Shown piece by piece: positions 1 through 45,482 of a stretch of DNA of 59,230 nucleotides. The notes beneath the pieces are model-generated. The model worked only from the letters and a program-made list of their open reading frames with translations, was not told where the DNA came from and ran no database searches. The DNA comes from a virus (lineage: Duplodnaviria > Caudoviricetes), in IMG/VR virus record IMGVR_UViG_3300020045_004392, positions 1 to 59,230 of that record, one strand, 5' to 3'. A program made the translations under genes and the position numbers. Every line of letters starts with the position of its first letter. Positions within the stretch are counted from its first letter, which is position 1.

Positions 1-13
1 TTTAAGCCCTAAC

Positions 14-148
14 CCATAACAGCCAAATACCCGGCAAGCTGGGCGACTGAAGGTTTTCGAGCGTTTGAGTTTCGCGTGTGCAGTATCGCAATTCGGACAG
101 GATTTTGCACGTAATCCCATCCTGCGTGTATTGGCGGGAGCGTTATAA
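14..148 (+). repeat. attC-like recombination site (homolog of 42469-42601)
   Basis: CCATAAC (14-20) ... GTTATAA (142-148), with imperfect inner inverted repeat GCCAAATACCCGGCAAGCTGGG / CCCATCCTGCGTGTATTGGC. Confidence 0.8.
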
Positions 149-174
149 AAGGGTTCAAATTGGTACAATGTATC

Positions 175-4025: not shown

Positions 4026-5309
4026 ATGGCATTCCTCGATATTTTCAAAGGGTTAAAAAAGAATCCACTTCAGCAAGCTGTTTATGAATACTGGATACAC
4101 TCAGGCAATGTTAACAACATTCCAGACGATCCGGATGCTTATCTAAAGAAAGGATATTCAGCGAATACCACTGTTTATTCGATTGTTTCAAGGATTGATG
4201 CAATGCGTAAACAGGCTAAGTTAGTGCTAAAAGATCAGGCCGGAAATGTAGTCGAAACACACGAACTATTGAAGTTTCGTGATAGATTTAATAAATCGCT
4301 GACCACTAACGATGCCATTACTCAAATGCTGATTTATAAACTGGTTATCGGTGAATGGTTCGTGTATAAACTCGCACCTGATGCTGGGGCAAATAAGGGG
4401 AAAGTATCAGAATTACATTTACTTCCTGCTGCTGACGTTGAAATTATTGAGGGAACAATCTTTGATCCGGTGCGAGGGTATAAGATTGAAGGAAACTACA
4501 ATATTGAGTTACCTGTTGAATCGGTTTATCATGGCAAGTTATTCAATCCGAATTGGAATGATGAGCGTACTCTTCACGGGATGTCCCCACTACGCGCGGC
4601 TGCAAACACTGTATCGAAATTAAACCAGATTGAGATTACAGAAACAAAAGCATTCGAGAACCAGGGGCCACCGTATATCCTTTACAAAGAAAGTTCAACC
4701 GATCCAATGCAAAACCGGATGACCGATCCGCAAAGGGATGAGATCGTAAAAAAGATCAAAAACGCTGCAAAGGAAAACAATAGATCATTGCCGTTAGTGT
4801 TAAAAGACAAATTTGGAAAACTGGATTTAGGGCAAAAGCTTGCTGATATGACTATCATTGAGTCAAGCAACGCGGGTATCATTGCGCTTTGTGCTGTTTA
4901 TGGTGCGCCTCCTGAATTATTTGGATATGGTCAAAAGACTTACAACAACATGCAAGAGGCTCGTAAATCAATGTGGACTGACTGCCTTATGCCAAACCTT
5001 GATGCAATTGCCGAAACATTTAACGCGTGTACTATTTACGATACATCCGAATATCAGGGTCTATATTGGGATTGGGATTATTCCGAAATTGAAGAACTTC
5101 AGGAAGGAATGCAAATTAAGGTCAATTGGATGAAAGCCGCCGGATGGTCTTACAACGAGATTCGCAAAGTAACAGGCAAAGAGCCGATTGACAATCCTTT
5201 GATGGATGAGCCTGTTATTGGGATGGGAGACACTTTTTTGAGTGATTACGGGGATCCGTTGGATGATCAAGACCCGACAAAGAAAGACTTTAGCGATTAC
5301 AAGAAATGA
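4026..5309 (+). CDS. Portal protein (HK97-like)
   Basis: 427 aa after TerL; GMSPLRAA, TYNNMQEA and NEIRKVTGKEPI motifs. Confidence 0.9.
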   Translation: MAFLDIFKGLKKNPLQQAVYEYWIHSGNVNNIPDDPDAYLKKGYSANTTVYSIVSRIDAMRKQAKLVLKDQAGNVVETHELLKFRDRFNKSLTTNDAITQMLIYKLVIGEWFVYKLAPDAGANKGKVSELHLLPAADVEIIEGTIFDPVRGYKIEGNYNIELPVESVYHGKLFNPNWNDERTLHGMSPLRAAANTVSKLNQIEITETKAFENQGPPYILYKESSTDPMQNRMTDPQRDEIVKKIKNAAKENNRSLPLVLKDKFGKLDLGQKLADMTIIESSNAGIIALCAVYGAPPELFGYGQKTYNNMQEARKSMWTDCLMPNLDAIAETFNACTIYDTSEYQGLYWDWDYSEIEELQEGMQIKVNWMKAAGWSYNEIRKVTGKEPIDNPLMDEPVIGMGDTFLSDYGDPLDDQDPTKKDFSDYKK

Positions 5310-6091
5310 AAACCTCCACCCGCAAATTTGAAATCCAATACCTTCGCACCCGCAACGCAATCGAGCGCAAAGGCATACGATTAGTTCAGGCTGCTTTGCG
5401 TTTGCAATACACTCAATTCTTAGACCGTGCCAAAGACTTATCGCCGTCAATGTGGAATGACATAAAAATTAGCGAGCAACCGATCAAACAATTTTTTGAA
5501 CAGTTTTATCCAATGTCTGGGCGATTGGGACAAATGACAAGAAAAAATATGTTAGCACAAAAAAATCAGGTGAAATCTTTGGAAGACGATTTATATTTGT
5601 CAATTTACGAGCGACACATGCAACAACTTGTCGGGACGAATGATTATGCCAAACGAATTAACACAATCACAAATACAACCTCTGAGCGGATTAATAACGT
5701 TATTCAATCGGTAATGACTGAGGGTGAATTGGGCGGTTATGGAATTGATAAAATACGTCAATCGCTAACTGATGCAATTGGGGCCAGTATTCGCGGCAAC
5801 GTTCGCGCGCGGGCTAAAGCAATCGCACAGACTGAAATGATCAGCGCAAGCAATCAAGCGTCAACCTATGCAGCCGATTCAACTGGGTTAGAGTATCGGA
5901 AATATTGGAGTACTTCGCACTTGCAGGGTATCAGACCTACGCATATAATGGCTGAACAGGATTCAATTCAGCGTGGCGGGTATAAGAAAGACGAACGTTT
6001 TGCAAATGGGTTATTGTTCCCGGGAGATCCGGCTGGACCAGCCGAAGAAGTTGTGAATTGTCGCTGCACAGTTTTACACGAAATTTTGTAA
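5306..6091 (+). CDS. Minor head / head morphogenesis protein (SPP1 gp7 / Mu gpF-like)
   Basis: RAKAIAQTE, RPTH and FPGDP...VNCRC motifs. Confidence 0.85.
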   Translation: MKTSTRKFEIQYLRTRNAIERKGIRLVQAALRLQYTQFLDRAKDLSPSMWNDIKISEQPIKQFFEQFYPMSGRLGQMTRKNMLAQKNQVKSLEDDLYLSIYERHMQQLVGTNDYAKRINTITNTTSERINNVIQSVMTEGELGGYGIDKIRQSLTDAIGASIRGNVRARAKAIAQTEMISASNQASTYAADSTGLEYRKYWSTSHLQGIRPTHIMAEQDSIQRGGYKKDERFANGLLFPGDPAGPAEEVVNCRCTVLHEIL

Positions 6092-33439: not shown

Positions 33440-33475
33440 AATTTTTTAGTTTAACACAAATGTATCATTTCTTTT

Positions 33476-35582: not shown

Positions 35583-35606
35583 GGGATTGATTAATTAGGG
35601 AAAAGT

Positions 35607-35627
35607 AGGCCGGAATTTACCCGGCCT
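35607..35627 (-). terminator. Hairpin after SSB-like gene
   Basis: AGGCCGG-N7-CCGGCCT with TTTT downstream on -. Confidence 0.55.
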
Positions 35628-35635
35628 GTAATTTG

Positions 35636-36013
35636 CTAGAAAGGAAGTGCATCATCAACTAACGGTGTATCATCAAACTGTTCTGACGTATTAACTTCGG
35701 CAGTCGGTGCAGACCATTCTTTCAGGTTACCCAAGAACGGCGTATATTTTCCGGCAGCCTTCAACGCTTCACGGATTTCCTTTTTAGGATTGATTTTGAT
35801 CGTGTGAGTATTCCCATTTTTTTGCTTCTCGGGTGCCACATCGTAAACGGCTATGCCCTGACTCAAATACGTTTTACCATCTTTAACCGTCTTTTCAATG
35901 TAGTTCGATTCAAGCGGTAGTATTACGCATTCGATTGGTCCGTTCTTACCTTTTACCATCGTAACGATGTGTTCCATCGCACTGTAATTCAATTGTCCTG
36001 TTAGTGTACTCAT
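35636..36013 (-). CDS. Putative single-stranded DNA-binding protein
   Basis: Acidic tail ending DDALPF; located in the recombination module. Confidence 0.65.
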   Translation of the reverse strand: MSTLTGQLNYSAMEHIVTMVKGKNGPIECVILPLESNYIEKTVKDGKTYLSQGIAVYDVAPEKQKNGNTHTIKINPKKEIREALKAAGKYTPFLGNLKEWSAPTAEVNTSEQFDDTPLVDDALPF

Positions 36014-36020
36014 TTTATGT

Positions 36021-36053
36021 TTTGCCCGTTATCCCGATAGCGAAGGGGTTATG
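36021..36053 (-). promoter_or_regulatory. Repeated 5' leader motif, copy 2
   Basis: Minus strand CATAACCCCTTCGCTATCGGGATAACGGGCAAA, 7 nt before ATG. Confidence 0.7.
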
Positions 36054-36056
36054 TGA

Positions 36057-36200
36057 TTATTTACGTTTAAAATATACATGGTGATTACCTTCATAATGAT
36101 AAAGCTCATAACTTATACTTATGATATAAATATTATCTTCATTTTTAGCATACCATTCATTAAGTAATTCTAATGTTTTAAATACAGAATGTTCAATCAT
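36057..36200 (-). CDS. Small hypothetical protein (MIEHSVFK...)
   Basis: Internal ATG of track ORF 36057-36428 avoids overlap with the exonuclease gene. Confidence 0.5.
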   Translation of the reverse strand: MIEHSVFKTLELLNEWYAKNEDNIYIISISYELYHYEGNHHVYFKRK

Positions 36201-36228
36201 TTTGTTAAGTTTATGCGCTTTCGCGCGG

Positions 36229-37107
36229 TTACTGTTCAACCTCCACACACATCTCATCCATGCTCCGCCCGGACATATACCCGTCCAAAATTCGTTTGGC
36301 CTTATGTACACGGTCGAGCATCGCATCAATGTAAATCTGATCACGCATGACGCGAATAATGACCAGTTGAAATTCAGGTTTACAGCGAGGATCGTAAGAA
36401 ACAAAATCGCACCATTGAACGCCTGCAACTTCGATATTCCCCTGAATTTGGCCGTAGTAATCGTGATTAATCATTATGCCGCCAGATTGTTTTAGATCGA
36501 AGTTGTTTTCATGAACCAATGGATCGTAAGGACATTTAATTTCGAGGATTCCTTCCACAAAACGGGTCGATCCTTCTTTACCTCCGATCACTTCCCCATC
36601 AAAGCTACCGCCCAAATACGGTATCGAGTAATGTACTTTAAACCCAACTTCATTAACCACATATCCGGTCTTTTCGGCATACTTTCCCCGCGCCTCTGGT
36701 TCGTACTTTGTTCCCCATGCGGTAGGTCTGAATTCTTTCATCATTTGCTCAATCGCTAATTGTTCGCGTCCTTCGTCTGTCATTCTCATATACGATGCGA
36801 TTGTTTTAATAACCTTCCTAGCAGTTTCGCCCCACTTTGCCATCTCTGGCGTGATTCCTAACTTCGCATTTACTTTCCCGTGTTTCATTAAGTCAGGAGT
36901 CTTTGAATTTGTGAACTTATCCCAGCGATGCAAAAACCATTCAATAGAACGTTGCTTCATTTGCTCAGTATCGTTTACTTTTTCGGAGTCGATCGTTATT
37001 GCTGAGAAGTCGGCAAGATCGGAGAATGGGTTGTTAACTTCATGTGATACCGATTTCATACCCTGAATATCACTACCTTTAAATTGTACTTTTACTTTGT
37101 CGCTCAT
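36229..37107 (-). CDS. YqaJ / lambda-exonuclease family protein
   Basis: QRSIEWF..R, WGTKYEPEAR, GGSFDG, LEIKCP and YYGQIQ motifs. Confidence 0.9.
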   Translation of the reverse strand: MSDKVKVQFKGSDIQGMKSVSHEVNNPFSDLADFSAITIDSEKVNDTEQMKQRSIEWFLHRWDKFTNSKTPDLMKHGKVNAKLGITPEMAKWGETARKVIKTIASYMRMTDEGREQLAIEQMMKEFRPTAWGTKYEPEARGKYAEKTGYVVNEVGFKVHYSIPYLGGSFDGEVIGGKEGSTRFVEGILEIKCPYDPLVHENNFDLKQSGGIMINHDYYGQIQGNIEVAGVQWCDFVSYDPRCKPEFQLVIIRVMRDQIYIDAMLDRVHKAKRILDGYMSGRSMDEMCVEVEQ

Positions 37108-37112
37108 GTCGC

Positions 37113-37730
37113 TTAATTTATCGGGGTTTCAACAAACTGCCTTAACTCTTTCAACAACTGCATCGCCCGTTCATTTGCTTCAAATTTTGAACGCTGCAAT
37201 GTGAATACTGCAACCATATGCTTAATCGCAGGTGAAGTCTGATTGCACCACTCAGAAAGTTTTGCAATCGGGAAGCGCGTGCCGTCTGGAATATTAAACC
37301 CGCTCGAATCAGCCTTCAGTTGAATCTTTGGAAGTATTTCCAAATGCCGACCAATTCCCCATTTTGCAGCAGCGCGAACAAACGCACTTGAAGCGGCTGT
37401 CTTTGCTTCGAACGTGTCTTTATCGACTTGTTCAATTGATTTCTTGCGTGATGCCCTTGCACCTCCTGCATCTGATTTTTCAATCATGCCTCCATCGGTC
37501 ATAATCTGGATTGAGCAAAAAAGTATTCCGGCAACTTCGCGGTACTCATTACCCCAGCCACCAATTCCGCAAACCTCATCCAAAATAGTTTCGCACTGAT
37601 CCGCATCATAATACGGGTAAATTTCATTTTTACCGTCTCCGGCCGAGTCTCCGACCCTCCATTTAGGCAGTACACCAATTGACTCATGAAAGTCTGGTGA
37701 GCCAAGTTTGATTAATTCGATTTTTTCCAT
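37113..37730 (-). CDS. Rad52/Sak-like single-strand annealing protein
   Basis: PYYDA...ILDEVCG..GW and AKTAASSAFVRAAAKWGIGR motifs; adjacent to exonuclease. Confidence 0.85.
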   Translation of the reverse strand: MEKIELIKLGSPDFHESIGVLPKWRVGDSAGDGKNEIYPYYDADQCETILDEVCGIGGWGNEYREVAGILFCSIQIMTDGGMIEKSDAGGARASRKKSIEQVDKDTFEAKTAASSAFVRAAAKWGIGRHLEILPKIQLKADSSGFNIPDGTRFPIAKLSEWCNQTSPAIKHMVAVFTLQRSKFEANERAMQLLKELRQFVETPIN

Positions 37731-37737
37731 TTGTTTT

Positions 37738-37770
37738 TTTGCCCGTCATCCCGATAGCAAAGGGGTTATG
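37738..37770 (-). promoter_or_regulatory. Repeated 5' leader motif, copy 3
   Basis: Minus strand CATAACCCCTTTGCTATCGGGATGACGGGCAAA, 7 nt before ATG. Confidence 0.7.
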
Positions 37771-37784
37771 CCCGTGTGGACTGA

Positions 37785-38093
37785 TTAATTATTTTTATGA
37801 AATTCAGCAATTAATGCTTTGTTTATTTTGTCCTCAATTTCGTAATTAATGTTTGATTCAACCGGATAAAATCCTTCGACTGTTATTAACTGAATATCAG
37901 TTGATACATAACGAGAGTTACACTCATCATTGATAAGTACTTTAACGTGAAAATTCAATTCATCATTAAATTTATTGATAAAAGAATGTCCTGATTTTTC
38001 ATGGCATTTATCGTTGTTTCCTGCCATTTCGCAAATTTGATTAACAAGTGCGTTAATCTCAGCTTCGGTAAATTCTACTTTTAGTGTTCTCAT
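37785..38093 (-). CDS. Hypothetical protein (MRTLKVEF...)
   Basis: ATG downstream of TATATTTG promoter at 38122-38129 (-). Confidence 0.6.
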   Translation of the reverse strand: MRTLKVEFTEAEINALVNQICEMAGNNDKCHEKSGHSFINKFNDELNFHVKVLINDECNSRYVSTDIQLITVEGFYPVESNINYEIEDKINKALIAEFHKNN

Positions 38094-38417
38094 TTGATTA
38101 GGATTTGTAATTTGATTGACACAAATATAGCACAATTGTTTTAAATACGCAATAGGTAAAAGAAAATAAATTAATTATTTTTAGGGGTGAATACTCCAAT
38201 ATTCGAATCTTTTTAACATTTATTAACTGAAACGGTTTGATTTAAAATCGTTTCCTAAAAATTTGACCGATTTTTCAACCGATATTGTTTAATTCGTTTT
38301 TTAATAAATTGATTAACTTGTATTTTACTTTTTGATTAGAAAATTCGAGTACCTAAAAAGTACTATAAACTTTCCGCTATTTACAAGTTATCGTCCAGTT
38401 TAGGACGCTGCGTTGAT

Positions 38418-38723
38418 TCATTTTCGTTTCTTTTTAGGCTTTGTGTAATTTGACTTTGTGACCCTATCGAGTTTCTTGTCATGGACTTTAGTATAAGCCT
38501 CAAATTCTTGTGATTTCTTTCCTGCAATATATTTTTCGTTCATTTGACAATTCGGAAAGTCGCAAAGCATCCCATCTACGTGAGCGCATCCTTGTTCTTT
38601 AAACAAAGCGCAGTTTTTAACTGGATCGCCTTTACTTCCATCAAATAAACTTTTAAATATACTTCCCATTCCCGGCTGTTGTTGTATTGCGTACAATTCT
38701 CTTGCTTGTTGTTTTTCGTCCAT
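38418..38723 (-). CDS. Cassette 1 gene b, Cys-rich hypothetical protein
   Basis: MDEKQQ...CALFKEQGCAHVDGMLCDFPNC. Confidence 0.6.
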   Translation of the reverse strand: MDEKQQARELYAIQQQPGMGSIFKSLFDGSKGDPVKNCALFKEQGCAHVDGMLCDFPNCQMNEKYIAGKKSQEFEAYTKVHDKKLDRVTKSNYTKPKKKRK

Positions 38724-38727
38724 AATG

Positions 38728-39039
38728 TTAATTTTTAGATTTATAACCTTGTTCAATAAGTATGTGGTCAAGCTCATCATAAAAAGGTTGCATATTTTTA
38801 TTTCCAACCAATTCACGAACTTTAGAAAGCCAAAATTTTTGTTGTACTTCTCTGTTTTCAATTGTAAACTGGAGCTTTGTTTTGTTTGCTTTTTGGCTCT
38901 TAAACTCATCGGTACTTTTCAGCCAGACTTTTAAAATAGGTCTGATTAAAGTTTGTAGTTTGTCACGGTTGATGTATGGTTGTGCCAATACTGCATCCGT
39001 GATTCTTTTTGAAATTTCATCTAAACTAATATCGTACAT
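38728..39039 (-). CDS. Cassette 1 gene a, hypothetical protein
   Basis: ATG at 39039 (MYDISL); frame extends to a TTG at 39084 inside attC1. Confidence 0.6.
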   Translation of the reverse strand: MYDISLDEISKRITDAVLAQPYINRDKLQTLIRPILKVWLKSTDEFKSQKANKTKLQFTIENREVQQKFWLSKVRELVGNKNMQPFYDELDHILIEQGYKSKN

Positions 39040-39071
39040 ATAATTTTGATTAAGTGATTGAAAAACCGGAA

Positions 39072-39166
39072 CGATAACTTTCAATAACGGTCAAGTGCGG
39101 CAGTATCGGGTTTATGCGTTGGACATTGTTTCAAACCCGCCCCTGCCGTTATCTAACCCGTTAGCA
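39072..39166 (+). repeat. attC-like site 1
   Basis: CGATAAC...ATAACGG(T)CAAGTGCGG / CCGCCCCTGCCGTTAT...GTTAGCA. Confidence 0.8.
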
Positions 39167-39172
39167 ACAAGG

Positions 39173-39496
39173 TTAAAGGCGTTCCCAAATCCAAGTTTCT
39201 CGACCGTTGAATCTTGACGGAGTTTCATTAAATGGGGGTTGAAAATGAATACCCTTGCCTTTAAGGTAAAATCCTTGCTTAATGTCCATGAGTAACATTC
39301 CCTCATAAACAGTTGAATTTCCTTCCATTACAATTCCCTTTTCAATGCTAAAAACTCGACTTTTCGGCTCTGTAATTCTGACTCTATCTCCAATTGTACA
39401 GGGTTTTCCGTCTTTATCGTTGCAGATAAATAGCCCTATTGCTAACATGTTGCTACCCGCAATAGCGGCAGCATCGGTTTTTGTAGTTTCGTTCAT
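39173..39496 (-). CDS. Cassette 2 gene, hypothetical (YopX-like DKDGK..IGDRV motif)
   Basis: Start codon lies inside attC2. Confidence 0.6.
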   Translation of the reverse strand: MNETTKTDAAAIAGSNMLAIGLFICNDKDGKPCTIGDRVRITEPKSRVFSIEKGIVMEGNSTVYEGMLLMDIKQGFYLKGKGIHFQPPFNETPSRFNGRETWIWERL

Positions 39497-39571
39497 TGTT
39501 TTAAGTTATTAGTAATTTGACAGTTATATGTTTCAAATCCGCTACTGACGTGTAGCACAGTACCGTTATGT
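39440..39571 (+). repeat. attC-like site 2
   Basis: TGCTAAC...TGCTACCCGCAATAGCGG / CCGCTACTGACGTGTAGCA...GTTATGT. Confidence 0.85.
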
Positions 39572-39577
39572 GCAACC

Positions 39578-40312
39578 TTAAAAAAGCACGCATTGGCGTT
39601 TGTGGTTCTTGAATCGTTCTACTGCCGCCCGAAAATAGTCGGGGTCAAGTTCAATGCCGACAAATGTCAGGTTCTTTTTATCTAAGGTGTTTGCTTTGTC
39701 TATTGCTATTGCTATGCTTCCACTTCCTAAGTGGGTGTCAATAATCTTAAAGTTTTCATTTGCGTATTTATTTAAAATCCATTCGTAAAGTTGTACAGGC
39801 TTTTGCGTTGGGTGTATTTTATCGCCTGTTCTGTTATCATATCGGTAAAGTTGTGCAGGGCTATCAAAAGAAGTCCAAGCAAGTTCAACTTGGCTAAAGT
39901 TTTCCCAAGGTTGCACCTTATCCCAACATAAAATACAACGGCTTGGCGGTAAGTTAAAATAGTTGCCACCCCAAATAATTTGCTGTTTACTTATTCGTTT
40001 TAGTTCAGTAAAATATTCATCAGTTGGCACGGCATTGTCCCAATCGCAATTTGCTGTATTTAGTTTTCGGTATTTCAACTTTCCAGAACCACCGTTTAAC
40101 CTTTTATTATTATTTCTTCTTTGGCATGGTGTCGCTGCCATATTTGGGGCATTAATACCATAAGGCGGGTCAACAATAGCCAAATCAAACTCTTTGTCTT
40201 TAAAGGTTTTCATTATAGCCATATTGTCGGCATTGTAAAAAGAAAAAAAAGGCTGCACATAACACTCGCTATACGCAAGCGGGGGTGTAGTGCTATTTTG
40301 TAAGTCTGTCAT
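39578..40312 (-). CDS. Cassette 3 gene, N6A/N4C DNA methyltransferase (beta class)
   Basis: VDPPYG, HPTQKP and DTHLGSGS motifs; start inside attC3. Confidence 0.9.
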   Translation of the reverse strand: MTDLQNSTTPPLAYSECYVQPFFSFYNADNMAIMKTFKDKEFDLAIVDPPYGINAPNMAATPCQRRNNNKRLNGGSGKLKYRKLNTANCDWDNAVPTDEYFTELKRISKQQIIWGGNYFNLPPSRCILCWDKVQPWENFSQVELAWTSFDSPAQLYRYDNRTGDKIHPTQKPVQLYEWILNKYANENFKIIDTHLGSGSIAIAIDKANTLDKKNLTFVGIELDPDYFRAAVERFKNHKRQCVLF

Positions 40313-40385
40313 TCTATTTTAGTTTTGTGTATTTTGATACTTTTGCGCTTCTAATCCCCGCCAGCGCATAGCGGAAACGTTAACG
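40257..40385 (+). repeat. attC-like site 3
   Basis: ACATAAC...CGCTATACGCAAGCGGGG / CCCCGCCAGCGCATAGCG...GTTAACG. Confidence 0.85.
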
Positions 40386-41483
40386 CCAACCATATTCCGC
40401 TTCGTGGCCAGATATAGCGTTGAAAATTTGATAGACAACCTGGGGAACTATTGCGTTCCCGTAGGCTTTGATAGATTCATTTCTCCATTTAGGAAAGGTA
40501 ATTCCGTCCAGTTGGGAGGAAACCCCATCATTTCCCCCACAAATTGTGGGTTCAGTAATTGGGAATTTAGAGAATCGTCCATATTTCGTATAACTGTCTC
40601 CAAATTTTGTTGCTTCCCTTCCCTGTTCTTTCCCATGTAACCCGTTTTGCCGCTTGCTGCATCCGGTGTCGGTAAAAGTCCGGCATTGAACATCTGTTGT
40701 ATTGATCTGCAGTATTTCATTCCCTTCGCACTCACACTCTGGCCGTTCTCGTTCAATTTTCGGTTCGATGGGTTCGTATTTGGCGTTGGTAATAGTCCGT
40801 AAAACATCGCCGCATCTATTATGCTGTTCGGTCTGTTTTCCCCGTTCTTTCTGCTCATCATTGTTGTTGCTCCGGTTGCTTTCAACTTCTCCACCCGTTC
40901 GGGATGATCCCGTTGTACGCTTGTTGGCGTAGGCCACAAAGAAGATTCTCTCTCGTCTGTGTGGAGCATTAATGGCACAAGCTGGAAGTATAACCGGTGC
41001 GACTTCGTACCCTTCAGCTTCCAAGTCAGCTTGCACCTCGTTGAAAACCATTCCCCCGTTCCAATTAACGAGGCCATAAACGTTTTCCCCCACAATGTAG
41101 CGCGGGGCAATCTCCCGTATTGCTCTAAGCATTTCGGGAAATAAATGCCTTTCATCTTCTTTTCCGAGCCGTTTTCCGGCCATGCTGTATGGTTGGCATG
41201 GAAATCCACCCGTAAGGATGTCAATGTTTCCTCTGTGAATAGTGAAGTCTGTTTTTGTGATGTCGTCATAACTTATAGCTTTAGGCCAATAATAATTCAA
41301 TACTTTCTTTCCAAATTCGTTCCACTCGCAATGAAAGACGTTTTCCCATCCCATCCATTCAGCAGCTAGATCAAAGCCACCGATACCGGAAAATAATGAG
41401 CCGTGACGAAATGGCTGGGCGTTAACTTCGTCTACCCGCAAGTCTGGCAGCGGTGCGTTATTCAAGTTCATCTTTTCGTTCAT
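40380..41483 (-). CDS. Cassette 4 gene, C5-cytosine DNA methyltransferase
   Basis: LFSGIGG, GGFPCQ, ENV, HRRERIF and YGNAIVP motifs; start inside attC4; stop TAA formed by the GTTA crossover. Confidence 0.92.
   Translation of the reverse strand: MNEKMNLNNAPLPDLRVDEVNAQPFRHGSLFSGIGGFDLAAEWMGWENVFHCEWNEFGKKVLNYYWPKAISYDDITKTDFTIHRGNIDILTGGFPCQPYSMAGKRLGKEDERHLFPEMLRAIREIAPRYIVGENVYGLVNWNGGMVFNEVQADLEAEGYEVAPVILPACAINAPHRRERIFFVAYANKRTTGSSRTGGEVESNRSNNNDEQKERGKQTEQHNRCGDVLRTITNAKYEPIEPKIERERPECECEGNEILQINTTDVQCRTFTDTGCSKRQNGLHGKEQGREATKFGDSYTKYGRFSKFPITEPTICGGNDGVSSQLDGITFPKWRNESIKAYGNAIVPQVVYQIFNAISGHEAEYGWR
40448..41269 (-). CDS. Overlapping alternative-frame ORF inside the C5-MTase (xPTP repeats)
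   Basis: 273 aa open frame with LWPTP, LLPTP x2 and LNPQFVGEMMGFPPNWT. Confidence 0.5.
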   Translation of the reverse strand: MTTSQKQTSLFTEETLTSLRVDFHANHTAWPENGSEKKMKGIYFPKCLEQYGRLPRATLWGKTFMASLIGTGEWFSTRCKLTWKLKGTKSHRLYFQLVPLMLHTDERESSLWPTPTSVQRDHPERVEKLKATGATTMMSRKNGENRPNSIIDAAMFYGLLPTPNTNPSNRKLNENGQSVSAKGMKYCRSIQQMFNAGLLPTPDAASGKTGYMGKNREGKQQNLETVIRNMDDSLNSQLLNPQFVGEMMGFPPNWTELPFLNGEMNLSKPTGTQ

Positions 41484-41550
41484 ACATTATTGGTTTTTGA
41501 CAGTTATTTACTCGTAATCCAGCCCTGACGTGTAGCCTAGATCGTTATAT
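41420..41550 (+). repeat. attC-like site 4
   Basis: CGTTAAC...CTACCCGCAAGTCTGG / CCAGCCCTGACGTGTAG...GTTATAT. Confidence 0.8.
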
Positions 41551-42027
41551 GCCACTTAAAAGGGACTTCGCATAATCTGACAATTCTATCTGAATTTCGG
41601 TTAATTGACACATTCGATAGAAATCAAATATTGTAGAAGTAGCAATCGGCAGACATCCATAGAACCCATTATTTTGAAAGCAAATAAAATCCTCTTCCAT
41701 ATCAATTTTATGGGTTTTATCTTCATTTTTAATGAGTATTTCATAAACATAGCTTCCGTGTGAGCATCCATAGCCATCTCCACAATCACAGCTATCCCAT
41801 TGTAAAATAACGTTTGTAAACATTACTTTTGCGTTCTTTTCTTCTGCCTCTTTTTTGGCAAGTTCGTAATTATCATCATCCATAAATTTACGATCTTGCT
41901 CTGACGGAATCCAACCAGTTTTTTGAAGATTTGACCCTTCAATGTCAAGTGGAATCTGAATAAAAGCGGCATATAACTTCGTATTAGCGTCAATTGCCGT
42001 TGTGTTGGTTTGCGAATTTTTGTTCAT
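41545..42027 (-). CDS. Cassette 5 gene, hypothetical with CDC...GCSH motif
   Basis: Start inside attC5; stop formed by the GTTA crossover. Confidence 0.65.
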   Translation of the reverse strand: MNKNSQTNTTAIDANTKLYAAFIQIPLDIEGSNLQKTGWIPSEQDRKFMDDDNYELAKKEAEEKNAKVMFTNVILQWDSCDCGDGYGCSHGSYVYEILIKNEDKTHKIDMEEDFICFQNNGFYGCLPIATSTIFDFYRMCQLTEIQIELSDYAKSLLSGI

Positions 42028-42101
42028 TTAATTTATTTTTAAGTAATTTGACAAATTTGTTTTTCAAAATCGGCAACTGCGCCAATACGTCAGCGTTATG
42101 G
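41971..42101 (+). repeat. attC-like site 5
   Basis: ATATAAC...CGTATTAGCG(T)CAATTGCCG / CGGCAACTGCGCCAATACG...GTTATGG. Confidence 0.85.
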
Positions 42102-42134
42102 GTAAGGCTAAAGCTCTGTGATAAGTTTGTTGTC

Positions 42135-42446
42135 TTAAATAGGTTCAGAAAGAAATGCTGAACATCGGTATGAAATTTGGCAAACTCCTATTGGTGGATG
42201 AATACCGCAATTCATTTGATAGCAAATCTTTTTCTTTTCTGACTCTGATTTTATTCTTTCAATTTCACTTTTAACATCTGACCAGAAATCGAAATCCATT
42301 TGAAGCTCTTGTCTTTCAAGTAGCGGCTTGATGGTTAAGTGTCCGGTTGTAACTTTTAGGGCATCGACAATTTCAGAAACAACATATTTTGCATTGTCCC
42401 CAAATTGCGCTTTTAGTTCTTTTGCTTTTTGAGTGTAATTTGACAT
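42135..42446 (-). CDS. Cassette 6 gene, hypothetical (MSNYTQKAKEL...)
   Basis: ATG at 42446 preferred; frame stays open through attC6. Confidence 0.6.
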   Translation of the reverse strand: MSNYTQKAKELKAQFGDNAKYVVSEIVDALKVTTGHLTIKPLLERQELQMDFDFWSDVKSEIERIKSESEKKKICYQMNCGIHPPIGVCQISYRCSAFLSEPI

Positions 42447-42468
42447 TTGACAGATTTTGAAGCCCTCC

Positions 42469-42601
42469 CCATAACAGCCAAATACCCGGCAAGCTGGGCG
42501 GCTGAAAGTGTTCGAGCGTTTGAGTTTCGCATGTGCAGTATCGCAACTCGGATGGAATTTTGCACGTAATCCCATCCTGCGTGTAGCCGTCACTGTTAAC
42601 A
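42469..42601 (+). repeat. attC-like site 6
   Basis: CCATAAC...GTTAACA; homologous to 14-148. Confidence 0.8.
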
Positions 42602-42605
42602 ACAA

Positions 42606-42947
42606 TTATATTGTCAGCACATATTCGCTGACTAATCGTTGTTTGACATCTTGACTGAGATATTTACACGGAGCTTTACCTTTTATTTCTTCAAGACCAT
42701 GTACGCTACTATCATAAGTAGTATAATTACGCATTCCGTGACTAATATCTTCTTTGGTGAATGAAATCCATCTACCAAAATGATGTTCGACATGGCACGT
42801 TTTCCCATTTCTCTTTTTGTAGGTATCTTGTTTGTTTACAAATGCTTTCATGTTGTGAAAGTCAATCTGAAATATTTTATACTTACTATCAATTTTGACA
42901 GCTTGCATTTCTTCGAGATAGCTTTTTGTTTGCTGATTGTATTCCAT
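42606..42947 (-). CDS. Cassette 7 gene, hypothetical protein
   Basis: Fills cassette 42596-43049; absent from copy A. Confidence 0.65.
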   Translation of the reverse strand: MEYNQQTKSYLEEMQAVKIDSKYKIFQIDFHNMKAFVNKQDTYKKRNGKTCHVEHHFGRWISFTKEDISHGMRNYTTYDSSVHGLEEIKGKAPCKYLSQDVKQRLVSEYVLTI

Positions 42948-42959
42948 TATAATAACTGT

Positions 42960-43055
42960 TGTTAACTTTGTGTTGCGGTAAATTGGGGTTGTGTTGCTTC
43001 GTTGACAGGCAATTATTTCAAACTCCCCAACTTCCGCAACACATCAGCGTTATTT
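42960..43055 (+). repeat. attC-like site 7
   Basis: TGTTAAC..TGTGTTGCGG(T)AAATTGGGG / CCCCAACTTCCGCAACACA...GTTATTT. Confidence 0.85.
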
Positions 43056-43059
43056 TTAG

Positions 43060-43557
43060 TTAAAATATGTCCAATGGATAACTTTTTACTATCGCTTTGA
43101 TCCTTGTTATCTCTTCCATTCCACAACCCTCAAATCCCTGGCACATAAATTTAATTCGTGATACAGGGATGTTCAACATTGTCGAAATTTCAGCCGAAGA
43201 TAATCCACTGCAAAATAGTGTGCGTATTTCCCATGAGTCAATTACTCGCTTCGGCTTTGCTGGTTCCCGTTCAGGTTTTGACACGACAAAGATGTTTTTT
43301 AACGAGCAATCTTCATAACTGCCATAATATCGGATTCGACCACAAAACGCATCGTAATCCAGACCATTAAACAGACAGTAAACCAATCTAGCCAAATAAA
43401 TAGTTTGCCCACCTAAAGTCATAATTACATGGTTATTTTTACCGATACGTGTCCCGGTTACTTCGGTGCCGTTTGGCCTGAATACTATGCCTGAGTCGGT
43501 GATGGTATATCCGTTAAATTGGCGCGTCTGAGCCGTTAGAGTGTCGTTTTTTTTCAT
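43060..43557 (-). CDS. Degenerate HNH/HTH protein (homolog of 175-672)
   Basis: High similarity to 175-672. Confidence 0.55.
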   Translation of the reverse strand: MKKNDTLTAQTRQFNGYTITDSGIVFRPNGTEVTGTRIGKNNHVIMTLGGQTIYLARLVYCLFNGLDYDAFCGRIRYYGSYEDCSLKNIFVVSKPEREPAKPKRVIDSWEIRTLFCSGLSSAEISTMLNIPVSRIKFMCQGFEGCGMEEITRIKAIVKSYPLDIF

Positions 43558-43709
43558 AACAATTCACATTCAATAGCGTTAAACAATTCATAAGGTATTT
43601 TTTCAGTAGATTCAATGTAAACACGTCCTTCGGTAACTGTTACCGAAGTTATGCCGTATTGGGTTATTTCGTCTGAAAATTTGGTGAGTAATGTGGAAAT
43701 GTGGTTCAT
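43554..43709 (-). CDS. Small hypothetical protein (homolog of 1019-1174)
   Basis: MNHISTLLTKFSDEITQYG...; read manually. Confidence 0.75.
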   Translation of the reverse strand: MNHISTLLTKFSDEITQYGITSVTVTEGRVYIESTEKIPYELFNAIECELL

Positions 43710-43921
43710 AGTCGTACGATTCCGATGCCGTTGCGTAAATACCAGTTTGGTTGTCTTTGATCACGAACAAACTTAAATAATTTAATCTTTTCCTCATCAA
43801 TATCTTCAGGGTTTCCCTGCAATGATATTTCGTATCCATCAAAATGAATACAATAAAACATCTCAGGCTTTAATCTGGTAAACCTGAAAATTAACTGCAA
43901 ACGTCTTAAATTTTCTTTCAT
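43706..43921 (-). CDS. Hypothetical protein (homolog of 1171-1383)
   Basis: Shared MKENLRRLQLIFRFTRLKPEMFY. Confidence 0.75.
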   Translation of the reverse strand: MKENLRRLQLIFRFTRLKPEMFYCIHFDGYEISLQGNPEDIDEEKIKLFKFVRDQRQPNWYLRNGIGIVRL

Positions 43922-44091
43922 GATCGATTTGTTTTTACCCCGGCAACATCGCCGTTGATCGTTCAGCAAATATACAATTGTTTTTTATATTTCAAAACTA
44001 TTTTTATATATATTTGATATATTTTTAAATATAACGAAAAACAGCAATTTATTTTTATTTTATATTTGAGTCAAAAAAGCGATATATTGAC

Positions 44092-44407
44092 AAAAGATAG
44101 AAAACAGCAAAATAAACCTATCTTTTTCACCCAAAAGATAGCTACCTAACCAAGCTTAAAACCTTACTACAATTGGCTTAGTGAATTATTCTATCTTTTT
44201 ATACATATTAGACTAAAGTATAAATATAATATAAAATAAAAATGAATTTAAAAATAAATTATATTTAAAACATACAGCAGAGTAGTAAATTTAGATAGAC
44301 TTTTACACTAACATACTAAAACGCCTTTATTCATAAGGATTAGATACCTATCTAAAGCCTATCTTTTACCTATCTTTTTAGGATAGGTTTTAATTTCCTA
44401 TCTTTTT
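44092..44407. repeat. CTATCTTTT/AAAAGATAG iteron-like repeats around a conserved AT-rich core
   Basis: Copies at 44092, 44118, 44133, 44191, 44359, 44370 and 44398. Confidence 0.65.
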
Positions 44408-45038: not shown

Positions 45039-45482
45039 ATGGCAGCCCCTGAAGGTAATGAATATTGGAAATTAAGGTCTAAAGATGGTCGGGATAAGAT
45101 ATTTGAAACACCTGAGCAACTTTTAGAAGCTTGTAATGATTATTTTGAATGGGTACAAAACAATCCTTTAAAATCGTCTGAAATAGTCAAATATAAGGAT
45201 TATGCAGAATTAATGGAAGTTCCTAAAATGAGGCCAATGACTATTGAGGGGCTTTGTAATTTCATTGACATAAGCGTGAAAGGATTTAAGCTGTACAGAG
45301 ATAGAATAGATTTTATTCCAGTCGTTACGCGCATTGAGCAAATAATTTACAATAATAAGTTCGAGGGTGCTGCTTCCGGCTTCTTAAATCCTAACATTAT
45401 TGCCCGTGATTTGGGTCTTCAGGATAAACAGCAAACCGAACATACAGGCGAAATAATCGTTCGCCCGCCAAAGTTCGACTAA
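45039..45482 (+). CDS. terS: Terminase small subunit (P22 gp3-like)
   Basis: MAAPEGNEYWKLRSKDGRDKIF...RPMTIEGLC...NIIARDLGL. Confidence 0.85.
   Translation: MAAPEGNEYWKLRSKDGRDKIFETPEQLLEACNDYFEWVQNNPLKSSEIVKYKDYAELMEVPKMRPMTIEGLCNFIDISVKGFKLYRDRIDFIPVVTRIEQIIYNNKFEGAASGFLNPNIIARDLGLQDKQQTEHTGEIIVRPPKFD

What the first reader, a model, noticed from the sequence alone, without database searches (positions are those of the whole stretch)
39173..42101. Inverted cassettes: genes are antisense and start inside their own attC
Seen: all cassette ORFs are on -. The start codons at 39496, 40312, 41483 and 42027 lie in the AT-rich central loop of the attC, so the attC left arm encodes the N-termini (AIAGSNMLA, PLAYSECYVQ, LPDLRVDEVNA, AIDANTKLYA). 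In cassettes 4 and 5 the stop codon TAA is the complement of the crossover GTTA (40379-40382, 41544-41547). Known: canonical cassettes have the gene reading toward attC and rely on Pc. Inference: here the site doubles as translation-initiation region, presented in an mRNA hairpin loop. The array would be read from the phage's leftward early promoter (43967-43974 or 1428-1435), so each cassette is self-contained and silent if captured in a host integron.
Basis: partly seen in the sequence, partly recalled or inferred. Interest (0 to 1): 0.88.

Follow-up and report, generated by a model that had tools for sequence, protein, structure and literature searches.

The report
Inverted integron-type cassettes in a phage
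A phage of Bacteroidota carries a row of small genes separated by folded recombination sites of the same family that its hosts use to store anti-phage defence genes, but in the phage every gene is turned round, and most begin inside their own site.

Summary
Seven hairpin sites (39063-43064) lie on the minus strand and separate the genes of a hypervariable early region. An eighth copy sits at window 5-155. A covariance model built from 20 relatives finds exactly these 8 sites in the 59 kb, all on the minus strand. The stems covary. One strand, the gene-sense strand here, folds better in 52 of 53 sites tested.

The same site family forms long arrays in Bacteroidota chromosomes. There the arrays sit beside a Xer/integron-integrase-like recombinase and carry defence genes (Avs4, restriction-modification), and the genes lie on the opposite strand. 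In viral contigs, 68 of 70 sites have the genes on the folding strand, none opposite.

Repeat units and homology breakpoints fall at the box where integron cassettes cross over. A start codon in the loop opens the gene in 34 of 51 long viral sites but only 4 of 39 host sites. Unrelated proteins share N-terminal peptides encoded by the site arms.

Not established: a canonical IntI (none in the phage, and the host recombinases lack the IntI insert), actual recombination, actual start-site use, and the proposed role of an mRNA hairpin loop.

The parts
42951..43064 (-). Site G. Short class, core 42963-43052 (90 nt). Fully intergenic, first site after the conserved gene 43060..43557. The start of 42606..42947 lies 16 nt downstream of the core.
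   Evidence: Covariance model 46.9 bits, E 1.9e-7, not a training sequence. RNA fold z -4.18, 0 of 200 shuffles as stable. Arm pairing -28.8 kcal/mol, rank 2 of 222.
42606..42947 (-). Cassette gene, 113 aa, no known family. Together with site G it is absent from the diverged second genome copy at the window start.
   Evidence: no Pfam or PHROG match. Window 1-130 matches 42457-42585, and 227-636 matches 43109-43518, with the gene and site G missing between them.
42460..42610 (-). Site F. Long class, core 42472-42598 (127 nt), atypical branched fold, fully intergenic. ATG 42446 of the next gene lies 26 nt downstream.
   Evidence: 35.3 bits, E 3.8e-5. A 91.5% identical copy at window 5-155 scores 39.2 bits. 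The folding strand is more stable, -22.4 against -15.8.
42135..42446 (-). Cassette gene, 103 aa read from ATG 42446. The listed 156-aa TTG ORF runs through site F. No known family.
41962..42110 (-). Site E. Long class, core 41974-42098 (125 nt). It contains the ATG at 42025-42027. The 3' arm on the sense strand encodes AIDANTKLYA.
   Evidence: 108.9 bits (training sequence). RNA fold z -3.82, 0 of 200 shuffles. 5-nt and 2-nt spacers with one bulged base on the 3' arm.
41545..42027 (-). Cassette gene, 160 aa, no known family. Its stop codon is the TAA in the box of site D.
41411..41559 (-). Site D. Long class, core 41423-41547 (125 nt). It contains ATG 41483 and a second in-frame ATG 12 nt on. 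The arm encodes LPDLRVDEVNA.
   Evidence: 97 bits (training). Weak arm pairing, -18.8 against -15.9. The same arm peptide, LPQLRIAEVIAQP, heads an unrelated PP-loop enzyme in L006.
40380..41483 (-). Cassette gene: C-5 cytosine DNA methyltransferase, 367 aa. The Pfam domain begins only at residue 26, after the site-encoded stretch.
   Evidence: PF00145, E 5.2e-48, residues 26-238. The next Met after residues 1 and 5 is residue 44, beyond motif I.
40248..40394 (-). Site C. Long class, core 40260-40382 (123 nt). It contains ATG 40312. The arm encodes PLAYSECYVQ.
   Evidence: 117 bits on minus against 20.3 bits on plus. RNA fold z -2.54. A public contig matches 39565-40382 only, which is this site plus its gene.
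39578..40312 (-). Cassette gene: N6/N4 DNA methyltransferase, 244 aa.
   Evidence: PF01555, E 3.2e-12. Among the 80 best viral homologues, matches reach residue 9 or earlier in 10 loci, and 7 of those have a site across the start. Matches begin at residue 16-29 in the other 70, and none of those has one.
39431..39580 (-). Site B. Long class, core 39443-39568 (126 nt). It contains ATG 39496. The arm encodes AIAGSNMLA.
   Evidence: 92.1 bits (training). It is 98.45% identical over 129 nt to a site in L012, with unrelated flanks on both sides. The first 19 residues are identical on otherwise unrelated proteins.
39173..39496 (-). Cassette gene, 107 aa, no known family.
39063..39175 (-). Site A. 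Short and atypical, with two candidate 5' boxes and spacers of 1 and 10 nt. Last site of the array.
   Evidence: 46.8 bits, E 1.9e-7, not a training sequence..
43967..43996 (-). Candidate leftward early promoter feeding the array, TTTG-N18-TATATTTG. Its twin is at 1428-1457.
   Evidence: Pattern search: 8 matches in the window against 4.9 expected. These two face the leftward operons, and none lies on the minus strand inside the array. The consensus is recalled from memory and function was not tested.
43060..43557 (-). Conserved 165-aa gene bounding the array upstream. No known family.
   Evidence: Homologues at 82-88% in L003-L006. No Pfam or PHROG match.
37785..38135 (-). Conserved gene bounding the hypervariable region downstream. 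In L003 and L004 it directly follows the homologue of 43060..43557.
5..155 (-). Copy of site F belonging to the second, diverged genome copy joined in this record.
   Evidence: 39.2 bits, E 6.6e-6..

Best explanation
The region 39063-43064 is a cluster of attC-type recombination sites without a recombinase of its own. It sits in the hypervariable early-left region of a Bacteroidota phage.

Site anatomy on the gene-sense strand:
- an (A/C)TAAC box
- a 5-nt unpaired spacer
- an imperfect stem of about 20 bp
- a loop, which gives two size classes of about 88 and about 126 nt
- the returning arm
- a 1-2-nt spacer
- a GTTA box

Shown:
- The sites form one family with the sites of chromosomal cassette arrays in Bacteroidota.
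- One strand folds better, whichever way the genes point.
- Cassette units and homology breakpoints fall at the 5' TAAC box of that strand, the position where integron cassettes cross over.
- In phages the genes lie on the folding strand, the reverse of the host arrays.
- In long phage sites a loop ATG opens the gene, so the 3' arm and GTTA box encode roughly residues 9-20.

Inferred:
- Cassettes are exchanged as folded single strands by a Xer/integron-integrase-type tyrosine recombinase supplied in trans, from the host or from related phages that carry one at the end of the array.
- Transcription enters from the early promoter at 43967-43996 and runs against the canonical cassette direction, so only inverted genes are expressed.
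- Because the folding strand is then in the mRNA, placing the AT-rich leader and start codon in the loop keeps initiation free of the stem.
- The cargo, two orphan DNA methyltransferases and four ORFans, is likely counter-defence.
For: (1) Family and structure
- The model finds 8 of 8 window sites on the minus strand and nothing comparable in the rest of the window.
- It gives 32 matches in 7 of 20 viral or phage loci, 25 in bacterial-genome loci and 32 in methyltransferase-homologue loci.
- On an alignment not fitted to any structure, 78.8% of cells pair against 64.0% in shuffles (0 of 500 reach it). The covariation score is 0.431 against 0.182 (0 of 500), and 0.10-0.16 when partners are slid. 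Ten of 12 pairs of the main helix change on both sides.

(2) Strand
- The folding strand is more stable than its complement in 34 of 35 viral and 18 of 18 bacterial-genome sites.
- G-U/G-T pairs number 92 against 25.
- The spacer is 5 nt on the 5' side in 29 of 44 sites and 1-2 nt on the 3' side in 31 of 44.

(3) Host arrays
- In a Mariniphaga sediminis isolate scaffold, 9 sites in 20 kb lie on the strand opposite to the genes. A 374-aa recombinase sits at the upstream end.
- The layout is the same in a Bacteroidales MAG (9 sites) and in L096.
- Cassettes there match Avs4 (E 2.8e-161), PDC-S06, PDC-M16A plus TPR, and a type II restriction-modification pair.

(4) Orientation
- Viral: 36 same strand, 0 opposite, 2 ambiguous of 38. 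Bacterial-genome loci: 3 same, 17 opposite, 4 ambiguous of 24.
- In methyltransferase-homologue viral loci, 32 of 32 sites are on the gene strand.

(5) Cassette units
- Tandem repeats of 871-872 nt (99.9-100% identical) in L241 run from one 5' box to the next.
- Homology of the window's N6-methyltransferase to L165, L166 and L170 stops at 39562-39565, the box of site B.
- A 1117-nt public contig matches 39565-40382 only, with 20 differences.
- L003 and L004 have no cassettes between the flanking genes. L005 and L006 have different ones.

(6) Starts
- A loop ATG opens an ORF of at least 50 aa in 34 of 51 long viral sites against 4 of 39 bacterial ones.
- The L006 enzyme carries 28 extra N-terminal residues that its site-less L005 homologue lacks.
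- Residues 1-19 are identical on unrelated proteins.

(7) Precedent
- Clusters of attC sites were reported in virulent phages, including a Polaribacter phage with methyltransferase cassettes. One of its two tested sites was recombined by IntI1 (PMC9892861, section 3.4 read).
Against: - No tyrosine or serine recombinase is found in the record. Two of two related viral records that are at least 99% complete also lack one.
- No genome tested has a match over the integron-integrase cut-off, 0 of 5. The array-side recombinases skip profile positions 180-238, so they lack the IntI-specific segment.
- The extended box consensus is not kept. The base before TAAC is A in 21 of 34 sites, where a pyrimidine is expected.
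- Extrahelical bases are not clearly one-sided: 135 against 132 unpaired interior bases.
- Some exchanges do not fit a single crossover point. Site B is shared with L012 with breaks at both boxes. Copies F and F1 diverge 13-15 nt inside the site.
- The model did not match the short hairpins of Polaribacter phage P12002L. The link to the published, assayed site is therefore by resemblance only.
- Start-site use, transcription and recombination were not observed directly.
- 'Bacterial' MAG contigs may include phage DNA. Of the three arrays mapped in detail (L096, L240, L241), only L240 comes from an isolate genome.
Confidence: 0.72

Rival explanations
1. The hairpins are RNA-level junction elements of a polycistronic early transcript: terminators, insulators, processing sites or devices that present the translation initiation region. 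They would be comparable to the promoter-terminator PeSL motifs of T4-like phages. Cassette shuffling would then come from homologous recombination at these conserved motifs by the phage's own Erf-like annealing protein and exonuclease.
For: - In the phage the better-folding strand is the mRNA strand, and it is rich in G-U pairs, 92 against 25.
- Stop codons sit 12 nt before the site or inside its box. Start codons sit at a near-constant place in the loop, and T-rich runs follow many sites.
- An Erf-like protein and an exonuclease lie just downstream of the array.
- One exchange between F and F1 breaks at a shared internal motif.
- PeSLs are described as composite terminator/promoter motifs at indel borders of hyperplastic regions (PMC4122927, abstract and introduction read).
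Against: - In host arrays the same family keeps the same fold bias (18 of 18) while the genes, and so the mRNA, lie on the other strand in 17 of 24 sites (maps). The bias is therefore a property of the DNA element and does not depend on the transcript.
- Breakpoints and tandem repeat units sit at a 4-5-nt box, too short for homologous exchange.
- No promoter consensus lies on the sense strand inside the array. Terminator-like and sigma-70-like hits are not enriched: 6 against 5.1 and 23 against 24.1 expected.
- There is no Rfam match.
- An RNA role in addition to the DNA role is not excluded.
Confidence: 0.13
2. The elements are miniature self-mobile palindromic insertion elements of two size classes, comparable to the Correia/NEMIS or ERIC repeats (both recalled from memory). 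They would have inserted between genes and been co-opted for expression.
For: - There are two discrete size classes of about 88 and about 126 nt.
- Site B is 98.45% identical in two contigs with unrelated flanks on both sides, so the element alone is shared.
- Near-identical sites recur within single host genomes.
Against: - Most sites differ in stem sequence with compensatory changes, and are not copies of a master element.
- They occur as regular one-per-cassette arrays beside a recombinase.
- The repeat units are site plus gene, not the site alone.
- No target-site duplication or transposase was seen. Neither was searched for systematically.
Confidence: 0.05
3. The genes are canonical after all. 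Either the true starts are downstream of the sites (for example the GTG at codon 19 of the N6-methyltransferase, directly after the GTTA box), or the minus strand is the top strand.
For: A GTG follows the box of site C in frame. Most distant methyltransferase homologues align only from residue 16-29.
Against: - Frames stay open from a loop ATG into the gene in 34 of 51 long viral sites against 4 of 39 host sites.
- The C5-methyltransferase has no Met between residue 5 and residue 44, which lies beyond motif I.
- Seven of the 10 homologues that align from residue 9 or earlier have a site across the start.
- Strand assignment by fold bias, spacers, breakpoints and comparison with host arrays all agree.
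Confidence: 0.04

Closest known systems
Clusters of attC sites lacking an integrase (CALINs) in phage genomes (Qi et al. 2023, PMC9892861; abstract, section 3.4 and passages read)
   Same: - Arrays of predicted attC sites without an integrase occur in virulent phages.
- One case is a Bacteroidota (Polaribacter) phage whose cassettes encode DNA methyltransferases.
- One of its two tested sites was recombined by IntI1.
- That phage has short TAACG...GTTA hairpins between its methyltransferase genes on the gene-sense strand.
   Different: - The paper reports 'divergent directions' for that phage. The text I read says nothing of inverted cassettes, start codons inside sites or site-encoded N-termini.
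- My model did not match that phage's short hairpins.
- The coordinates of its assayed sites are in supplements I could not see.
Integron attC sites and sedentary chromosomal integrons (Nivina et al. 2016, PMC5027507, passages read; 'biobanks of anti-phage defence' preprint 10.1101/2024.07.02.601686, search listing only)
   Same: - Conserved AAC/GTT boxes at the base of an imperfect hairpin.
- An unpaired spacer and a variable loop.
- Structure conserved while sequence varies.
- One strand favoured.
- Crossover at the AAC of the folding strand's 5' box.
- One-gene cassettes.
- Host arrays full of defence systems.
   Different: - The spacer is strongly asymmetric (5 against 1-2 nt).
- The stem is a continuous run of about 20 bp.
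- There are two fixed lengths.
- The extended RYYYAAC consensus is not kept.
- The neighbouring recombinase lacks the IntI-specific segment and points the same way as the cassettes.
- In the phage the genes are on the folding strand.
PeSL promoter-terminator motifs of T4-like phages (PMC4122927, abstract and introduction read; PMC2839356, search listing only)
   Same: Short structured intergenic motifs lie at the borders of indels in hyperplastic early regions full of small ORFans. They are proposed to mediate modular shuffling.
   Different: PeSLs are sequence-conserved promoter plus stem-loop units, thought to act by homologous or site-specific recombination. Here no promoter was found in the sites, the stems covary, and the family is shared with host recombinase-linked arrays.
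ORF-11/ORF-18 in attI1 and short ORFs within attC (review PMC8876359, passages read)
   Same: A recombination site carries translation signals that help express the neighbouring cassette.
   Different: Those are separate short ORFs acting by translational coupling on the canonical strand. Here the cassette's own start codon and first 20 or so residues lie within its own site on the other strand.

Membership tests
integron attC site | Inverted R boxes with the conserved AAC/GTT triplets at the base of the hairpin | tested here: met
   TAAC and GTTA are invariant in 20 of 20 aligned long sites and present in all 34 sites listed.
integron attC site | Extended box consensus RYYYAAC / GTTRRRY (as given in PMC5027507) | tested here: not met
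   The base before TAAC is A in 21 of 34 sites, where a pyrimidine is expected. After GTTA the next base is T in 18 of 34, where a purine is expected.
integron attC site | Imperfect hairpin with an unpaired central spacer and a variable terminal loop; structure conserved while sequence varies | tested here: met
   Covariation score 0.431 against 0.182, 0 of 500 shuffles reach it, and 10 of 12 main-helix pairs show double changes. Spacers are 5 nt in 29 of 44 sites and 1-2 nt in 31 of 44. Loops fall into two lengths.
integron attC site | Extrahelical bases on one arm that mark the recombined strand | tested here: inconclusive
   A single bulge on the 3' arm is seen in sites E and G and several others. 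Summed unpaired interior bases are 135 (5' arm) against 132 (3' arm) over 44 sites.
integron attC site | One strand (the bottom strand) favoured over its complement | tested here: met
   More stable in 34 of 35 viral and 18 of 18 bacterial-genome sites, whichever way the genes point.
integron attC site | Cassette unit bounded at the crossover box (between A and C of the folding strand's 5' AAC) | tested here: met
   Tandem 871-872-nt units run from box to box in L241. Methyltransferase homology ends at 39562-39565. A public contig matches 39565-40382 only. Exceptions: site B/L012 breaks at both boxes, and F/F1 breaks inside the site.
integron attC site | Recognised by curated attC models (IntegronFinder, HattCI) and recombined by an integron integrase | not testable with these tools
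   Neither model is available here, and Rfam holds no such family. Recombination needs a bench assay.
integron (platform) | An adjacent integron integrase: a tyrosine recombinase with the IntI-specific additional segment | tested here: not met
   Window: no PF00589 match. Host array-side recombinases score 202-211 bits on TIGR02249 (cut-off 265), in two stretches that skip profile positions 180-238. They just pass NF040815, 'tyrosine recombinase/integron integrase' (226.5 and 220.7 against 220). Phage recombinases in L012 and L009 are of the same kind and score lower.
integron (platform) | attI site and Pc promoter at the head of the array | not tested
   The 140 nt between the recombinase and the first cassette in L096 were read but not analysed.
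PeSL (T4-like phages) | A conserved early promoter joined to a terminator stem-loop | tested here: not met
   No TTTG-N16-22-TAnnTTTG match lies on the sense strand inside the array. Sigma-70-like and terminator-like hits are at the shuffle level. The promoter consensus used is recalled from memory.
miniature inverted-repeat element | Near-identical copies with terminal inverted repeats and target-site duplications | tested here: not met
   Mean column identity is 53% with compensatory stem changes. Only some pairs are near-identical. Target duplications were not searched for systematically.

The most novel reading that the evidence does not exclude
Bacteroidota and their phages share a distinct, undescribed integron-like system. 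It is run by a Xer-type recombinase that lacks the IntI insert and points the same way as the cassettes. Hosts use it to bank defence systems in the canonical orientation. Phages use the same sites in reverse to bank counter-defence genes such as orphan methyltransferases. In the phage version the site has become a portable expression module: it supplies the stop codon for the gene before it, and the leader, start codon and an N-terminal tag of about 20 residues for the gene after it. Any captured reading frame is therefore expressed from the early transcript, and it stays antisense, hence silent, if it moves into a host array.
Probability: 0.35. Interest if true: 0.9.

Novelty: new variant of a known kind. 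Interest (0 to 1): 0.8.

Why it matters
Integron-type sites in phages have only recently been reported, and integrons are considered rare in Bacteroidota (IntegronFinder 2.0 preprint, passages read). Three points follow from this window.

- A well-defined site family links phage early regions to large chromosomal arrays in Bacteroidota. Those arrays hold Avs4, restriction-modification and other defence candidates. The phage arrays hold orphan DNA methyltransferases. Defence and likely counter-defence genes would then be traded on one recombination platform.
- The consistent inversion in phages is a clean natural experiment on how cassette orientation, the strand that folds and expression are coupled.
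- A recombination site that encodes the start and first residues of whatever gene lies behind it is an unusual overlap of DNA-level and protein-level constraints. It predicts shared N-terminal peptides on unrelated proteins, and that prediction was confirmed here.

The questions become directly testable with the model built here and a cultured host such as Mariniphaga.

Tried and rejected
- Ungapped inverted-repeat search saw only the hairpins of A and G. The arms contain bulges, so I used a TAAC...GTTA duplex scan.
- Plain MFE z-scores were unremarkable for 4 of 7 sites.
- I first read the loop motif TTTGAAA-N8-TGTCAA(A) as a promoter or operator. ATTTGACA occurs 11 times against 5.4 expected (5 of 100 shuffles reach that). 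TTTCAAA is not enriched, 37 against 39. The motif also occurs in host sites whose genes face the other way. I therefore treat it as part of the site. Its role is unknown.
- Sigma-70-like and terminator-like scans were at the shuffle level.
- Rfam gave one sub-threshold chance hit.
- BLAST against phage records found only pieces of methyltransferase genes.
- I favoured the RNA-only reading until. I dropped it as the main explanation when host arrays showed the same fold bias with genes on the other strand.
- Polaribacter phage P12002L: the duplex scan (minimum 55 nt) and the model found nothing. Reading its intergenic regions showed shorter hairpins with the same boxes.
- Of 17 IMG/VR pattern hits, 8 were chance matches without the hairpin. 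Most of the genome-collection pattern hits were also chance: 25 model matches in 13 of 80 loci.
- Model sensitivity is imperfect with default filters. It missed the L010 site and three sites of L009 that are in my list, one of them (L009 5665-5815) a training sequence of the model.
- Sequencing runs held at most 0.16 of the sampled words. All are stored as contigs, so strand, ends and expression could not be read. I make no claim about habitat. Many joints lie inside conserved methyltransferase motifs and come from other organisms.
- PHROGs and Pfam gave nothing for 4 cassette proteins or for the 165-aa flanking protein.
- The outer helix I proposed beyond the boxes pairs in only 57% of cells and is not claimed.
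- Rows dropped before counts:
  - One search left out the window copy at 5-155 and the matches cut by a locus end (L008 1-65, L097 1-126).
  - One search also left out L169 3212-3300 and L170 5665-5741 (cut), plus L086, L079 and L041 2806-3012 (matches longer than 200 nt). It set aside 15 short sites and 2 sites too near a locus end.
  - One search used 44 sites in which both boxes were found.
- Supplementary files of PMC9892861, which hold the attC coordinates and sequences of P12002L, were not available.

Full report
WHAT THE WINDOW IS
The window is a whole IMG/VR virus record, linear and estimated 82% complete. Its genes resemble those of Flavobacteriia and Bacteroides phages only weakly: 37 phage records share pieces of methyltransferase genes at 60-80% identity. 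The record holds about 1.4 genome units of two diverged variants joined head to tail. Positions 1-1760 match 42457-44310, and 2725-12484 match 45477-58129, at 73-92% identity. One unit has rightward structural genes (about 1877-26805) and a leftward operon (26765-43969). The finding lies at the promoter-proximal end of that leftward operon.

THE OBSERVATION
Read on the gene-sense (minus) strand, each junction has this layout:
- an upstream stop codon, usually 12 nt before the site or inside its first box
- an (A/C)TAACG box
- a spacer
- a GC-rich arm
- a loop
- the complementary arm
- a GTTA box

There are seven such sites (A-G, 39063-43064) plus a copy of F at the window start.

Three tests show the pattern is not chance.
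- Five sites rank 1, 2, 4, 5 and 7 among all 222 TAAC...GTTA pairs of the window by arm pairing. D and F are weak.
- A covariance model built from 20 long sites, run without filters, finds the 4 training sites and the 4 others (G, A, F, F1) at E <= 4e-5, all on the minus strand. Nothing comparable turns up in the other 55 kb.
- Simple folding z-scores are notable for only three sites.

A STRUCTURED FAMILY
A gapped pattern taken from sites B, E and G found 17 IMG/VR stretches. Nine of them have the full hairpin, and three of those nine are one sequence. The arrays around them hold up to 10 sites in 4 kb. Core lengths fall into two classes, 87-90 nt and 120-129 nt.

On a plain MAFFT alignment of 20 long sites, RNAalifold predicts 15 pairs, 13 of them with compensatory changes. 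With the box stem added, 78.8% of cells pair against 64.0% in shuffles. The covariation score is 0.431 against 0.182 (0 of 500 shuffles) and 0.10-0.16 for slid partners. One G-U pair is kept in 15 of 20 sequences. The boxes themselves never vary, so they say nothing about pairing. An outer helix I proposed pairs in only 57% of cells. The unpaired spacer is 5 nt on the 5' side in 29 of 44 sites and 1-2 nt on the 3' side in 31 of 44.

A HYPERVARIABLE, CASSETTE-WISE REGION
Four relatives share the flanking genes. In L003 and L004 the homologue of 43060..43557 is followed directly by the homologue of 37785..38135. L005 has a single gene between them and no site. L006 has three sites and different genes. 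Within the window, the second genome copy lacks gene 42606..42947 together with site G.

Breakpoints:
- Site B is 98.45% identical over 129 nt to a site in L012, from box to box, with unrelated flanks.
- A 1117-nt contig from a public run matches 39565-40382 only (20 differences). That span is the box of B, the N6-methyltransferase gene and the whole of site C.
- Homology of that gene to L165, L166 and L170 stops at 39562-39565, and homology between L165 and L166 starts exactly at a 5' box.
- In a host array, a 226-aa cassette is repeated in tandem units of 871-872 nt (99.9-100% identical) that run from one 5' box to the next.

These units match the integron definition of a cassette, with crossover at the AAC of the folding strand's 5' box (PMC5027507, passage read). 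Two cases do not fit a single crossover point: B/L012 breaks at both boxes, and F/F1 breaks 13-15 nt inside the site.

WHICH STRAND, AND WHY IT IS NOT ONLY RNA
The gene-sense strand folds more stably than its complement in 31 of 32 sites, with 92 against 25 G-U pairs. That first suggested an mRNA structure.

The same pattern searched in a collection of bacterial genomes gave model matches in 13 of 80 loci. By their record titles most are Bacteroidota, with one contig binned as an archaeon. A genome-wide model search then found at least 20 sites in each of four genomes.

In a Mariniphaga sediminis isolate scaffold, nine sites in 20 kb all lie on the strand opposite to the genes, with a 374-aa tyrosine recombinase at the upstream end. 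A Bacteroidales MAG (L241) and L096 show the same layout.

Across all loci:
- The model strand is the better-folding one in 34 of 35 viral and 18 of 18 bacterial-genome sites.
- Genes are on that strand in 36 of 38 viral sites (0 opposite, 2 ambiguous).
- Genes are on the opposite strand in 17 of 24 bacterial-genome sites (3 same, 4 ambiguous).
- In 80 further viral loci chosen only for a methyltransferase homologue, 32 of 32 sites are on the gene strand.

The fold bias therefore belongs to the DNA element, as in attC bottom strands. The phage cassettes are inverted relative to the host arrangement. Both collections were searched with the same pattern, so the search itself does not create the difference.

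STARTS INSIDE THE SITE
In long viral sites a loop ATG, 54-83 nt after the 5' box (most often 71-75), opens an ORF of at least 50 aa that runs out of the site in 34 of 51 cases. In host sites this happens in 4 of 39.

Further support:
- The C5-methyltransferase Pfam domain begins at residue 26, and no alternative Met precedes motif I.
- The N6-methyltransferase homologues that align from residue 9 or earlier number 10, and 7 of them have a site across their start. None of the 70 that align from residue 16-29 has one.
- A PP-loop enzyme in L006 has 28 extra N-terminal residues (including LPQLRIAEVIAQP) compared with its site-less homologue in L005. That peptide resembles LPDLRVDEVNAQP of the window's C5-methyltransferase.
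- The first 19 residues of the 107-aa window protein are identical to those of an unrelated L012 protein.

Actual initiation was not observed. A GTG just after the box of site C remains a formal alternative for that one gene.

THE RECOMBINASE QUESTION
The record has no tyrosine or serine recombinase. Among five related viral records, three have a tyrosine recombinase and the two that are 99-100% complete have none. In L012 and L009 a 264-277-aa Xer/IntI-like enzyme lies directly after the last cassette on the gene strand.

The enzymes beside the host arrays just pass NCBI's model 'site-specific tyrosine recombinase/integron integrase' (226.5 and 220.7 bits, cut-off 220). They stay below the integron-integrase subfamily cut-off (202 and 211 against 265). 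They align in two stretches that skip profile positions 180-238, so they lack the IntI-specific segment. The L096 enzyme is 36% identical to the L012 phage enzyme.

I therefore describe the system as integron-like and do not file it as an integron. Whether these enzymes act on the sites is an inference from position only.

EXPRESSION
A full match to the Bacteroidota promoter consensus (recalled from memory) lies at 43967-43996 on the minus strand, with its twin at 1428-1457. There is none on the sense strand inside the array. General promoter and terminator scans are at background. This fits promoterless cassettes read from the early promoter, against the canonical cassette direction.

Under that reading the folding strand is part of the mRNA. 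The AT-rich leader and ATG sit in a loop of about 67 nt, with room for an initiating ribosome. That the hairpin actually presents the start in this way is an inference.

CARGO
The window cassettes encode an N6/N4 and a C5 DNA methyltransferase and four proteins without any family match. Host cassettes match Avs4 (E 2.8e-161), PDC-S06, PDC-M16A with a TPR protein, and a type II methyltransferase-endonuclease pair.

COMPARISON WITH WHAT IS KNOWN
- Clusters of attC sites without an integrase have been reported in 17 phages. They include Polaribacter phage P12002L with methyltransferase cassettes, and one of its two tested sites was recombined by IntI1 (PMC9892861).
- That phage has 50-55-nt TAACG...GTTA hairpins between its methyltransferase genes on the gene-sense strand. 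My model does not reach them, and the published coordinates are in supplements I could not see.
- Complete integrons are described as rare in Bacteroidetes (preprint 10.1101/2022.02.28.482270, passage read).
- Translation signals within attI1 and short ORFs within attC are known (PMC8876359, passages).
- Three full-text searches and the passages read turned up no description of cassettes that start inside their own site in inverted orientation. That is not proof of absence from the literature.

CAVEATS
- Most host examples are MAG contigs.
- Strand calls for genes rest on the longest ORFs.
- The model was trained on phage sites.
- E-values from the short calibration are rough.
- No experiment supports recombination, transcription or initiation.

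Noticed in passing
window 1-1760 vs 42457-44310; 2725-12484 vs 45477-58129: The record joins about 1.4 genome units of two variants that are only 73-92% identical. It is either a tandem arrangement or a chimeric assembly of two strains. Differences between the copies include a cassette indel (42606..42947 plus site G).
   Followed up: partly
window 48496-51822: There is a 3.3-kb insertion in the second copy between the homologues of 4026..5309 and 5306..6091, holding four ORFs, one of 770 aa. A strong TAAC...GTTA hairpin at 51642-51745 (-28.3 kcal/mol, rank 3 of 222) lies at its end, but the site model does not match it.
   Followed up: no
L240 (G008:C3:9001-29000), L241 (G009:C5:426001-446000), L096: Bacteroidota chromosomal arrays of the same site family lie beside a co-directional Xer-like recombinase that lacks the IntI-specific segment. 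They carry Avs4, PDC-S06, PDC-M16A plus TPR and a type II restriction-modification pair. This may be an undescribed integron-like class in a phylum where integrons are held to be rare.
   Followed up: partly
L241 2391-4146 and 15044-16800: A 226-aa cassette (predicted N-terminal signal-like sequence) occurs four times, as two tandem pairs 12.6 kb apart, at 99-100% identity.
   Followed up: partly
L012 4400-5233 (-), L009 1719-2513 (-): Two related viral contigs carry a 264-277-aa Xer/IntI-like recombinase directly after the last cassette. This gives the canonical integron geometry (integrase divergent from the sites' top strand) but with all cassette genes co-directional with the integrase.
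   Followed up: partly
loops of sites B, E, G (e.g. window 42046-42068) and host sites in L037, L054, L097: A palindromic motif TTTGAAA-N8-TGTCAA(A) directly after the 5' arm is shared by phage and host sites regardless of gene direction. Its function is unknown. It could be a protein-binding site or an apical mini-hairpin.
   Followed up: partly
L240 7472-7717 and 17445-17690; L094 5980-6192: An 82-aa ORF beginning MWSGGISGRNRV overlaps two sites in the Mariniphaga array. A similar sequence is present in a Prolixibacteraceae MAG. The surrounding 616 nt are 99.7% identical between the two Mariniphaga copies.
   Followed up: no
window 43060-43557 (-): A conserved 165-aa protein heads the array in all relatives (82-88% identity). 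It has no Pfam or PHROG match. By eye its C-terminus looks like a helix-turn-helix, which would suggest a regulator of the early operon.
   Followed up: no
L013 (sense coordinates 173-908 of the 300-2600 reverse-complemented slice): The C5-methyltransferase homologue (38% identity to the window's) is split into two overlapping frames, so it may be frameshifted.
   Followed up: no
L010 1-790: There is a tandem repeat with a 60-nt period (copies 89-94% identical), upstream of the region holding a short-class site.
   Followed up: no
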